A DNA stretch of 32,000 nt from Candidatus Saccharimonadota bacterium (GCA_002688505.1 CP024013.1:90001-122000); one strand, 5' to 3'; shown: positions 13,594 through 15,523, numbered from the stretch's first letter. A program made the numbers and translations. Notes: generated from the sequence alone by a model not told the origin.

Positions 13594-15523
13594 ATGAAAA
13601 TAAAAAAAAATAATAAAAATAATAAATTTAAAAAAAAATTTAATAAAAATATAACAAATCAAAAATATAAAAAATTTAAAAATAAAAGAAAAAAAATATT
13701 TAAAAAAAAAAATATAAAAAATAATTTTAAAAAAAAAAATAAAATTAAAAAAAAAAAAAAAAATATAAAAAATAAAAAATTAAAAAAAAAAAAAAAAATA
13801 AAAAAAAAAAAAATAAAAAAAAAAAAAAAAAAAAAAAAAAAAAAAAAAAAAAAAAAAAAAAAAAAAAAAAAAAAAAAAAAAAAAAAAAAATATAAAAAAT
13901 AATCAATTAAAAAAATATAAATTATTAAAAAAAAATATAATTCTAAAAAGAAAAATAGGAAAAATAATTAAAAACAGATCACCTATTATAACTATAATGG
14001 GACATGTTAATCATGGTAAAACATCATTAATAAATTGTATAAAATCATCAAATATTAAAACAAAAGAAATTGGAAATATAACTCAAAATATAAATGCATA
14101 TAATATTAAAAACAAATATGGAAAATTAACATTACTAGATACTCCAGGACATTATACATTTACAGATATGAGAAAAAAATCTATAAATATATCAGACCTA
14201 ATAATATTGTTAATAGCAATAGATGATGGAATAATGCCACAAACTATAGAAATAATAAAATATGCTAACAAAAAAAAAGTACCTATATTAATAGCATTAA
14301 ATAAAATTGATAAAATTAATTATTTAGAAAATATAAATACAATTAAAAATAAAATAATTAATAATAATTTAATATCAAATAAACTATTTAAAAAAAATAT
14401 ATTTATAAAAATTTCTACAAAAAAAAAAATTGGTATTAATAAATTAATAAAATATATATTTATAAAATCTAAATTAATAAAATTAAAAACTATAATAAAT
14501 GGTATGGCTTCAGGAATTATACTAGATTCAAACATTAATAAAAATATAGGTCCAATAGCTAAAATACTTATTAAAAAAGGGACTTTAAAAAAAGGAAATA
14601 TAATTTTATGTAATGAAACATATGGTAAAATAAAATGTATTTTTGACGAAAATAAAAACATAATTAATAAAGCTAAACCATCTATGGCTGTAGAAATATC
14701 AGGTTTTTATAAAATTCCTAATATAGGAAAAAAATTTATAGTAGTTAATAATAAAAAACAAGCCAAAAAAATATCTGAAATAAAATATAAAATAAATAAA
14801 GAAAAAAAATTAGAAAAAATAAAAAAAAAAAATCTTAAAAATATTTTATTAAATAAAAATAATAAAAATTTAAATATAATATTAAAAACAAATTTATAAT
14901 CAAAAAAAAAAAATCTTAAAAATATTTTATTAAATAAAAATAATAAAAATTTAAATATAATATTAAAAACAAATTTATTAAGCTATATAAAAACTATAAA
15001 AAATAGTATTAAACAAATATCAAAAAAAATTAAAATAATATATTATAATGTTGGTAATATTAATGAAAATGATATAATATATGCAAAAACAACCAACTCT
15101 ATTATAATAGCTTTTAATGTTGAAAAAGACAAAATAATAAATAAAAATAATAATTATAATATAAAAATATATTATTTTTCATTAATTTATCAATTAATAG
15201 AAAAATTAACTAATATATATAAAATAAAATTTAAAAAATTAAATATAGAAAAAGAAATTTTAGGAATAGCAATTATTAAAAATATTTTTAAATCATCAAA
15301 TAAAAATGTAATAGCTGGATGTAAAATAAGCAAAGGATATATAAATATAAAAAATAATATAAAAATAAAAAGAAAAGATAAAATTATATACAAAGGAAAA
15401 ATTAAATCTATAAAAAAATTTAAAGAGAAAGTTAAAATTGTATATAATAATAATGAATGTGGAATTTATATAAAAAATTTTAATAAAATTAAAATAGGAG
15501 ATAAAATAATATCATTTAACTAA
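13594..15523 (+). CDS. infB: Translation initiation factor IF-2, interrupted by a frame change inside a poly(A) tract and by one in-frame TAA
   Basis: Segment a (13594-13902, frame +1) is an ATG-initiated K/N/I/F-only N-terminus ending at TAA 13900. Segment b (13817-14899, frame +2) reads ..SPIITIMGHVNHGKTSL (G1), DTPGH and NKID, then domain II. Segment c (14900-15523, the same frame as b, beginning right after TAA 14897-14899) is 207 sense codons before the terminal TAA (15521-15523), with no internal stop and no ATG. It encodes ILKTNLLSYIKTIKNSI...ECGIYIKNFNKIKIGDKIISFN (IF2 C-terminal domains). I checked every codon of segment c by hand. Confidence 0.85.
13815..13890 (+). repeat. 76-nt uninterrupted poly(A) homopolymer inside infB
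   Basis: Direct count: T at 13814, A at 13815-13890, T at 13891. It is preceded by A-runs of 16 (13747-13762), 18 (13781-13798) and 14 (13800-13813). Confidence 0.95.
14817..14978 (+). repeat. Tandem direct duplication, 81-bp period, two copies, inside infB
   Basis: 14821-14897 is identical to 14902-14978 (77 nt: A12 then TCTTAAAAATATTTTATTAAATAAAAATAATAAAAATTTAAATATAATATTAAAAACAAATTTAT). The copies are separated by AATC (14898-14901). Confidence 0.93.

What the first reader, a model, noticed from the sequence alone, without database searches (positions are those of the whole stretch)
13594..13999. 76-nt uninterrupted poly(A) tract inside infB, with the N-terminus and G domain in different frames
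A runs uninterrupted from 13815 to 13890 (76 nt), after A-runs of 16, 18 and 14 nt. The only ATG (13594, frame +1) opens a 102-codon K/N/I/F reading frame that crosses the tract as 25 Lys codons and stops at TAA 13900-13902. The IF2 G domain (..RSPIITIMGHVNHGKTSL) is in frame +2. That frame is closed by TAA 13814-13816 at the tract's 5' edge and has no ATG, GTG or TTG until the Met at 13997, which sits directly on the G1 motif. An ATG-initiated full-length IF2 therefore needs a net +1/-2 shift within the tract; 75 or 78 A would be in frame. RNA-polymerase slippage on long A-runs is known to rescue frames in Buchnera and Blochmannia. Ribosomes are known to slide and stall on consecutive AAA codons in E. 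coli. Either process could produce a heterogeneous mix of products here, for an essential translation factor. A homopolymer this long inside an essential bacterial CDS is extraordinary.
Basis: partly seen in the sequence, partly recalled or inferred. Interest (0 to 1): 0.78.

Follow-up and report, generated by a model that had tools for sequence, protein, structure and literature searches.

The report
Probable misassembly inside Stammera infB
The 76-base run of A's that splits the essential translation factor gene infB in this beetle-symbiont genome is really in the deposited sequence, but an independent assembly of reads from the same strain and comparison with sister strains indicate that it sits in an extra 127-base block that is most likely an assembly error, so the gene is probably ordinary and intact.

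Summary
A76 lies at 13815-13890. ATG 13594 opens a frame-1 ORF that ends at TAA 13900. The IF2 G domain is in frame 2, which is closed by TAA 13814. The window is Candidatus Stammera capleta (about 14% GC, TGA=Trp). Sister strains show that the upstream ORF is the true IF2 N-terminus.

The slippage interpretation is not supported, for three reasons.

1. A perfect 77-nt direct repeat with a 4-nt spacer creates an in-frame TAA at 14897-14899. Slippage cannot repair this.
2. Deleting two repeat-bounded blocks (13776-13902, 127 nt, containing A76; and 14821-14901, 81 nt) gives a 573-aa IF2. It is colinear with the closest relative's 574-aa IF2 (82% identity, one gap).
3. Independent k=31 contigs from run SRR6147586 match 15.9 kb of the window with one mismatch. 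That mismatch is the last base of the contig that ends at 13776. It reads T, exactly as the block-free junction predicts. A second contig runs through the end of the 77-mer without the duplication branch.

No relative has an A-run longer than 16 in this region.

Most likely this is a local misassembly, or at most a minority variant. Interest is low.

The parts
12499..13536 (+). nusA (code 4; TGA=Trp at the conserved ..KLTKWNI.. position)
   Evidence: Pfam NusA domains on the identical Logan contig gene
13594..13775 (+). infB 5' part: the orthologous start codon and the Lys/Asn-rich N-terminal segment (frame 1)
   Evidence: Aligns with the N-termini of P0001-P0004. It is called as a 61-codon partial gene on Logan contig L029.
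13747..13775 (+). Left copy of the 29-nt exact direct repeat A17-TATAAAAAATAA that bounds the extra block
   Evidence: repeat 13747/13874, 29 nt
13776..13902 (+). Extra 127-nt block (AAAATT-A17-T-A14-T-A76-TATAAAAAATAA). It is absent from all relatives. Because 127 = 3x42+1, this block is the frameshift.
   Evidence: Logan contig L029 reads T instead of A at 13776, as the block-free junction predicts.
13815..13890 (+). The 76-nt poly(A) tract of the finding
13903..14820 (+). infB core, frame 2: end of the N-terminal linker, G domain (G1 motif GHVNHGKT from 14000) and domain II
14821..14901 (+). Extra 81-nt block: first copy of the 77-nt exact repeat plus the spacer AATC. It creates the in-frame TAA at 14897-14899.
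   Evidence: Logan contig L028 passes from the end of the 77-mer straight into TAAGC.
14902..15523 (+). infB 3' part (IF-2 C1/C2 domains), same frame as the core. It has no start codon of its own. Stop codon at 15521-15523.
15533..15880 (+). rbfA, the downstream neighbour in the conserved nusA-infB-rbfA-truB order
   Evidence: PF02033

Best explanation
The window is the chromosome of Candidatus Stammera capleta, the pectinolytic gut symbiont of tortoise beetles. It has a 271,175-nt contig and uses genetic code 4. The gene is infB in the usual nusA-infB-rbfA-truB context.

The deposited sequence differs from an ordinary, intact 573-codon infB by two extra, repeat-bounded blocks.

- The first is a 127-nt block (13776-13902) that carries the A14 and A76 runs and shifts the frame by +1.
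- The second is an 81-nt block (14821-14901) that duplicates a 77-mer and introduces a TAA.

Both are most likely local errors of a short-read de Bruijn-graph assembly or contig join in extremely A-rich, low-complexity sequence. At most they are a minority variant. The real gene most likely reads ...AAAATT-A17-TATAAAAAATAA|TCAATT... in one frame, with A17 as its longest run. It is then translated normally from ATG 13594.

Shown: the two blocks, the colinearity after their removal, and the junction k-mer in an independent assembly.

Inferred: that the deposit, rather than the independent assembly, is wrong, and how the error arose.
For: 1. Removing 13776-13902 and 14821-14901 gives a 573-aa ORF. 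It aligns end to end with the closest relative's 574-aa IF2 (P0001, CP043978.1) at 82% identity with a single 1-residue gap. It passes the NCBIfam IF-2 equivalog cut-off (454.9 vs 424.4 bits).

2. Logan k=31 contigs of run SRR6147586 cover window 8480-13776, 14902-16209 and 16180-25499, about 15.9 kb. They have one mismatch in total. With T the codon reads Asn, which gives ..NIKNNQL.. as in relatives (..TKNNQL..).

3. In the window the last 31-mer of the 77-mer has two successors (A and T). Contig L028 runs through it into TAAGC without a break.

4. All six inspected Logan contig ends lie at A12-A17 runs, and L028 and L031 overlap by 30 nt. The position of the break at 13776 is therefore generic homopolymer noise. 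Only the base is informative.

5. In the Stammera loci retrieved, the longest A-run upstream of the G1 motif is 9-16 nt. IF2 is a single ORF from its ATG in 14 of the 15 Stammera loci scanned (L018 is cut by its record start).

6. The 77-mer is the only exact non-homopolymer repeat of 30 nt or more in the 32 kb. Both anomalies fall in one gene, while mutS, ftsH, pnp, ptsI and groEL are intact.

7. The repeat is exactly 77 nt and the tract is 76 nt. These are k and k-1 for k=77, a common final k-mer size. That is my own knowledge and a lead, not a test.

8. [quoted passage not shown]
Against: - I could not see reads. The evidence against the block is one junction k-mer and the absence of one branch in a cleaned k=31 graph. 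Such a graph cannot itself represent a homopolymer longer than 31 nt.
- I could not establish the library type of SRR6147586 (DNA or RNA), nor whether it is the read set behind the deposit.
- The contig that should continue from the junction into the G domain could not be retrieved.
- The 127-nt block has internal structure (AAAATT-A17-T-A14-T-A76) that a simple loop traversal does not obviously generate. An assembler needs some reads with long A-runs to build it, so a long-tract variant may exist in part of the population.
- One A12 run (25321-25332) did not break a Logan contig while the A12 at the start of the 77-mer did. A minor junction path there is therefore not excluded.
Confidence: 0.7

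Rival explanations
1. The long poly(A) tract is real and hypervariable, at least in part of the polyploid symbiont population. Replication slippage gives a distribution of DNA lengths. RNA-polymerase slippage on the A-run gives a mixed mRNA pool. Roughly one third of that pool joins ATG 13594 to the G domain, yielding IF2 with a poly-Lys insert of about 25 or more residues. Ribosome sliding on AAA codons adds further heterogeneity, and tmRNA/SmpB rescues stalled ribosomes.
For: - The tract and frame break are in the deposited sequence.
- Slippage rescue of poly(A) frameshifts is established in Buchnera and Blochmannia (PMC3017870; PMC5009743).
- Ribosomes slide on iterated AAA codons (PMC4363877).
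- tmRNA and smpB are present in the window.
- The upstream ORF is open for 102 codons while the other two frames are full of stops.
- An assembler needs reads with long A-runs to build such a tract (inference).
- Smaller homopolymer frame breaks in the infB N-terminus occur in other symbiont assemblies: CP043983.1 (A9) and CP102983.1 (A16).
Against: - The in-frame TAA at 14897 is outside any homopolymer and cannot be rescued. Slippage alone therefore never gives full-length IF2 from the deposited sequence.
- An independent contig carries the block-free junction as its retained path.
- No relative has a run longer than 16.
- The frame break equals a discrete 127-nt block rather than a one-base length change.
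Confidence: 0.15
2. The lesion is real, and IF2 is made without its Lys-rich N-terminus by initiation downstream of the tract. Initiation would be at ATG 13997 or at a non-AUG codon such as ATT 13967 or ATA 13964, which lie 4-7 nt after an AGGA. The upstream ORF would be a dead remnant.
For: - One Stammera lineage (CP144793.1, L007) naturally has only 16 residues before MGHVNHGKT, so the K-rich segment is dispensable there.
- E. coli makes N-terminally shortened IF2 isoforms from internal starts (established knowledge).
- GGA-type Shine-Dalgarno-like motifs at -9 to -13 precede about a third of the genes in the window. AGGA at 13957-13960 has similar spacing to ATT 13967.
Against: - ATG 13997 encodes the conserved Met immediately before the P-loop Gly. 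Starting there deletes the beta1 strand and profile positions 81-92 of TIGR00487.
- The AGGA is explained by a conserved Gly codon.
- The TAA at 14897 would still truncate the protein before the C1/C2 domains.
- Independent contigs favour an intact gene.
Confidence: 0.05
3. infB is a recently inactivated pseudogene in this strain. It has two independent insertions, and initiation is supported in some other way.
For: There are two disruptive lesions in one gene in the deposit. Pseudogenes are reported in Stammera genomes (Table S2).
Against: - IF2 is universally essential in bacteria (established knowledge).
- infB is present in every Stammera locus retrieved. It is a single ORF in all but two: CP043983.1 has a one-base homopolymer frame break, and CP043989.1 is cut at its record start.
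- Apart from the two blocks, there is not one stop or frameshift in 573 codons of a 14% GC gene, and identity to the nearest relative is 82%.
- Independent contigs lack both lesions on their retained paths.
Confidence: 0.03

Closest known systems
Poly(A)/poly(T) frameshifts in endosymbiont genes rescued by transcriptional slippage (Buchnera aphidicola, Blochmannia; Tamas et al. 2008 as cited in PMC3017870 and PMC5009743)
   Same: An AT-rich, reduced insect-symbiont genome. An essential information-processing gene whose two halves are in different frames on either side of an A-run. The flanking ORFs are otherwise well preserved.
   Different: - Known cases involve single-base indels in runs of about 9-13 nt, confirmed by resequencing and often conserved between populations.
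- Here the 'run' is 76 nt and sits in a 127-nt block absent from all relatives.
- It is contradicted by an independent assembly.
- It is accompanied by a non-homopolymer TAA lesion that slippage cannot fix.
De Bruijn-graph or contig-join misassembly at low-complexity sequence (extra traversal of a repeat-bounded loop; duplicated k-mer overlap at a join)
   Same: - Both extra blocks are bounded by exact direct repeats.
- One repeat is exactly 77 nt and the tract is 76 nt.
- Removing them restores a perfect orthologue-like ORF.
- The junction k-mers are not on the retained paths of an independent assembly.
   Different: The assembler and k used for the deposit are unknown to me. The 4-nt spacer AATC and the A17-T-A14-T-A76 substructure are not explained in detail.
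Bacterial IF2 with a variable, dispensable N-terminal region (E. coli IF2 alpha/beta isoforms; short-N-terminus IF2 in Stammera CP144793.1)
   Same: The conserved core starts about 12 residues before the P-loop. The N-terminal 80-115 residues are low-complexity, Lys/Asn-rich and highly variable in length and repeat content among Stammera strains.
   Different: There is no evidence that this strain uses an internal start. The only downstream ATG would remove the beta1 strand of the G domain.

Membership tests
Bacterial translation initiation factor IF-2 (NCBIfam TIGR00487 equivalog) | Whole-protein score above the curated cut-off | tested here: met
   The repaired 573-aa ORF scores 454.9 bits against a cut-off of 424.4. 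Residues 81-572 align to profile positions 81-577 of 587.
Bacterial translation initiation factor IF-2 (NCBIfam TIGR00487 equivalog) | Domain order: G domain, domain II, IF-2 C1, C2 barrel | tested here: met
   PF00009 at 87-246, PF22042 at 263-341, PF11987 at 362-469 and PF03144 at 503-567 (weak).
Bacterial translation initiation factor IF-2 (NCBIfam TIGR00487 equivalog) | Conserved nusA-infB-rbfA-truB neighbourhood | tested here: met
Bacterial translation initiation factor IF-2 (NCBIfam TIGR00487 equivalog) | One uninterrupted reading frame in the sequence as deposited | tested here: not met
   There is a +1 frame break within 13776-13902 and an in-frame TAA at 14897-14899.
Slippage-rescued homopolymer frameshift (Buchnera/Blochmannia type) | A single indel inside a homopolymer in an otherwise intact gene | tested here: not met
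   The difference from an intact gene is a 127-nt block, not a single-base indel. A second, non-homopolymer lesion (TAA 14897) is present.
Slippage-rescued homopolymer frameshift (Buchnera/Blochmannia type) | The frameshift is present in genomic DNA on independent sequencing | tested here: not met
   The independent k=31 contig of SRR6147586 carries the block-free junction 31-mer, which is absent from the window. No read-level counts were available.
Slippage-rescued homopolymer frameshift (Buchnera/Blochmannia type) | The frameshift or tract is conserved among related strains or populations | tested here: not met
   In the 15 Stammera loci scanned, the longest upstream A-run is 9-16 nt. IF2 is in one frame in 14 of them, and L018 is cut at its record start. 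One further strain (CP043983.1) has an unrelated A9 frame break.
Slippage-rescued homopolymer frameshift (Buchnera/Blochmannia type) | A heterogeneous mRNA tract length that yields in-frame transcripts | not testable with these tools
   This needs cDNA amplicon sequencing.
Assembly artefact (repeat-bounded extra block) | Removal of the block restores colinearity with orthologues | tested here: met
Assembly artefact (repeat-bounded extra block) | The junctions of the block lack read support | tested here: inconclusive
   The retained paths of the Logan contigs exclude both junctions, but reads themselves could not be examined.

The most novel reading that the evidence does not exclude
A genuinely long (76 nt or more), length-unstable poly(A) tract exists inside the essential infB gene in at least part of the Stammera population. 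It coexists with the intact A17 allele. IF2 dosage or N-terminal poly-Lys length would then vary from cell to cell through DNA and RNA slippage. This would be by far the longest coding homopolymer known in a bacterial essential gene.
Probability: 0.12. Interest if true: 0.7.

Novelty: not a real feature. Interest (0 to 1): 0.15.

Why it matters
If the tract were real, it would be an extreme test case. It would show how far transcriptional and translational slippage can keep an essential gene working in a degenerating symbiont genome.

As it stands, the value is practical. A published 'complete' reference genome of a model digestive symbiont probably carries two local misassemblies in infB. These make an essential gene look broken and would be read as a pseudogene or a recoding event by automated pipelines.

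The case also shows that frame breaks at homopolymers in genomes below 15% GC need read-level confirmation before any biological reading.

Tried and rejected
- Exact-protein look-ups to fetch independent contigs across the tract and the G domain found nothing. The queries were the 300-aa ORF, the 102-aa ORF, truB, two nusA fragments and 13862-14899. The contig that should bridge the junction to the G domain was therefore never seen.
- A search for SRR6147586 in the literature and in the supplement of the Stammera re-assembly paper found nothing. The library type and the link to the deposit remain unknown.
- The 2017 genome paper is not held, so the assembler and k used are unknown.
- The cluster look-up gave no names or accessions for the window's own protein.
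- I first read the start of contig L028, exactly at the 77-mer, as evidence for a branch from the AATC junction. I rejected this because all six inspected contig ends sit at A12-A17 runs, with a 30-nt overlap between L028 and L031, which is generic homopolymer noise.
- I considered the 127-nt block as a clean tandem duplication of the 35-nt unit AAAATT-A17-TATAAAAAATAA, and the 81-nt block as a clean 81-nt tandem duplication. Neither fits. The first has 92 extra A-rich bases, and the second has a 4-nt spacer that matches neither flank.
- I considered chance. It is excluded by the run-length distribution.

Full report
**Observation.** The window is about 14% GC. It reads TGA as Trp: NusA ..KLTKWNID.., and mutS, ftsH, pnp and ptsI become full-length only in code 4. 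The poly(A) tract is exactly as reported, 76 uninterrupted A at 13815-13890. Every other A-run in the 32 kb is 17 nt or shorter. ATG 13594 (frame 1) opens a 102-codon K/N-rich ORF that crosses the tract and ends at TAA 13900. The G domain is in frame 2, which is closed by TAA 13814. The only ATG/GTG/TTG between the nusA stop and the G domain are 13594 and 13997. The offset is 403 nt, so 75 or 78 A would be in frame. The flanking runs are 17, 17 and 14 nt, not 16, 18 and 14.

**Identity.** Protein and locus searches place the window in Candidatus Stammera capleta. Its own 300-aa ORF (P0005) sits on a 271,175-nt NCBI contig. The closest relatives are other Stammera chromosomes of 245-313 kb. UGA-to-Trp recoding is documented for Stammera (PMC8629427). 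The gene order is nusA-infB-rbfA-truB.

**The upstream ORF is the real N-terminus.** In sister strains IF2 is one ORF of 558-596 aa. Its first ~55 residues align with the window's frame-1 ORF (MQIKKNNKKNKLKIKFNKNKINKKYKK... vs MKIKKNNKNNKFKKKFNKNITNQKYKK...). The segment ..NNQLNKYKLLKKNIILKRK.. aligns with the window's frame 2 after the tract. In these relatives the longest A-run upstream of the G1 motif is 9-16 nt.

**A second lesion.** The same gene contains a perfect 77-nt direct repeat (14821-14897 and 14902-14978) separated by AATC. The junction creates an in-frame TAA at 14897-14899. The downstream 207 codons (C1/C2 domains) have no start codon of their own. This is the only exact non-homopolymer repeat of 30 nt or more in the window. 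No slippage mechanism repairs a TAA, so slippage at the tract could never give full-length IF2 from the deposited sequence.

**Two discrete blocks.** The tract lies in a 127-nt segment (13776-13902: AAAATT-A17-T-A14-T-A76-TATAAAAAATAA). It is bounded by a 29-nt exact repeat (A17-TATAAAAAATAA at 13747 and 13874) and is absent from all relatives. Because 127 = 3x42+1, the block as a whole is the frameshift. Deleting it together with the 81-nt block (14821-14901) gives a 573-aa protein. It aligns end to end with P0001 (574 aa) at 82% identity with one single-residue gap. It passes the NCBIfam IF-2 equivalog cut-off and has the full domain set.

**Independent assembly.** Run SRR6147586 in the Logan collection (k=31) contains this very strain.

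- Three contigs cover window 8480-13776 (L029), 14902-16209 (L028) and 16180-25499 (L031).
- All six contig ends lie at A12-A17 runs, and L028 and L031 overlap by 30 nt. The positions of the breaks are therefore generic homopolymer noise.
- Over about 15.9 kb there is one mismatch, the last base of L029 at window 13776, which is T instead of A.
- The resulting 31-mer, T-A17-TATAAAAAATAAT, does not occur in the window. It is exactly the junction predicted when the 127-nt block is removed.
- It also turns the codon into Asn, giving ..NIKNNQL.. as in relatives.
- If the deposit were the only truth, that k-mer could arise only as an error tip. The contig would then continue with A toward the A-run.
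- In the window the last 31-mer of the 77-mer has two successors, yet L028 passes straight into TAAGC.

Both lesions are therefore off the retained paths of an independent assembly of reads from the same strain.

**Further context.** The repeat length (77) and tract length (76) equal k and k-1 for a commonly used final k-mer. This is my own knowledge and a lead only. The authors of the later 50-genome study re-assembled the public read sets and report removing local assembly errors in all genomes (10.1101/2023.12.12.571295). Their table lists 270,381 nt for the Cassida rubiginosa strain and 271,169 nt for C. vibex.

**Caveats.**

- I saw no reads.
- A k=31 graph cannot represent a long homopolymer.
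- The library type of SRR6147586 is unknown.
- The contig that should run from the junction into the G domain could not be fetched.
- An assembler needs some long-A reads to build an A76, so a minority long-tract allele is not excluded.

**Rivals.**

1. A real hypervariable tract with DNA and RNA slippage. Slippage rescue is well documented for runs of 9-13 nt in Buchnera and Blochmannia (PMC3017870; PMC5009743). Ribosomes slide on AAA runs (PMC4363877). tmRNA and smpB are present. But the TAA lesion, the independent contig and the relatives argue against it.
2. Internal initiation. One Stammera lineage (CP144793.1) naturally has only 16 residues before MGHVNHGKT, so the K-rich region can be lost. 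But ATG 13997 would delete the beta1 strand of the G domain, and the TAA remains.
3. A pseudogene. This is implausible for IF2, given 573 otherwise clean codons.

**Verdict.** The structural reading is right and the biological reading is not supported. The most likely explanation (about 0.7) is a local misassembly in low-complexity sequence. The phenomenon it resembles is already known, and its defining features were tested here and not met. Interest is low. The residual novel case is a real long tract in part of the population (about 0.12).

Noticed in passing
window 14821-14978: A perfect 77-nt direct repeat with the 4-nt spacer AATC lies inside infB and creates an in-frame TAA at 14897-14899. 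It is the only exact non-homopolymer repeat of 30 nt or more in the window. Its length equals a common assembler k.
   Followed up: yes
window 9432-9500: rlmE/ftsJ (ORF 9449-10045) has no ATG/GTG/TTG in frame. The only nearby ATG (9432) is followed by A11, T9 and A11 and is out of frame with the body. The Logan contig has identical run lengths, and its gene caller missed rlmE. This is either a non-canonical start or a genuine 5' homopolymer frame break.
   Followed up: partly
L030 (CP043983.1) 1152-1510: Another Stammera assembly has infB split in the N-terminal region. One unit of a 27-nt tandem repeat (KINKNIKKN) has A9 instead of A8, so the gene was called from MGHVNHGK (480 aa).
   Followed up: partly
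L014 (CP102983.1, Enterobacteriaceae bacterium PC38) about 2640-2680: In this second, related reduced symbiont genome (L014), the infB ATG is followed by A16 and is out of frame with the IF2 body. The body also has an early in-frame stop (272 codons after the G1 motif, read in code 4).
   Followed up: no
L007 (CP144793.1) 2950-3030: A Stammera lineage with a genome of about 303 kb has lost the Lys-rich N-terminal extension altogether. IF2 starts MKYKKKKTTKKLIITIMGHVNHGKT, 45 nt after nusA.
   Followed up: partly
L016-L020 upstream of position 3004: The N-terminal extensions of several Stammera IF2s are built from tandem 7-8 residue repeats (KIFKNKK, NIFNKNKK) with varying copy number. The region evolves by repeat slippage.
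   Followed up: no
window 8480, 13776, 14902, 16180/16209, 25499: The Logan k=31 contigs of SRR6147586 break at A12-A17 runs, and the one adjacent pair seen (L028 and L031) overlaps by 30 nt. The A12 run at 25321-25332 does not break a contig. This is a useful signature of homopolymer length noise in this read set.
   Followed up: yes
window 18213-19046 and 1-880: smpB (18213-18638) and tmRNA (18688-19046, tag AKNNQNCALAA) are retained. The 5' 812 positions of the 16S rRNA lie on the minus strand at 1-880, which explains the local GC peak.
   Followed up: no
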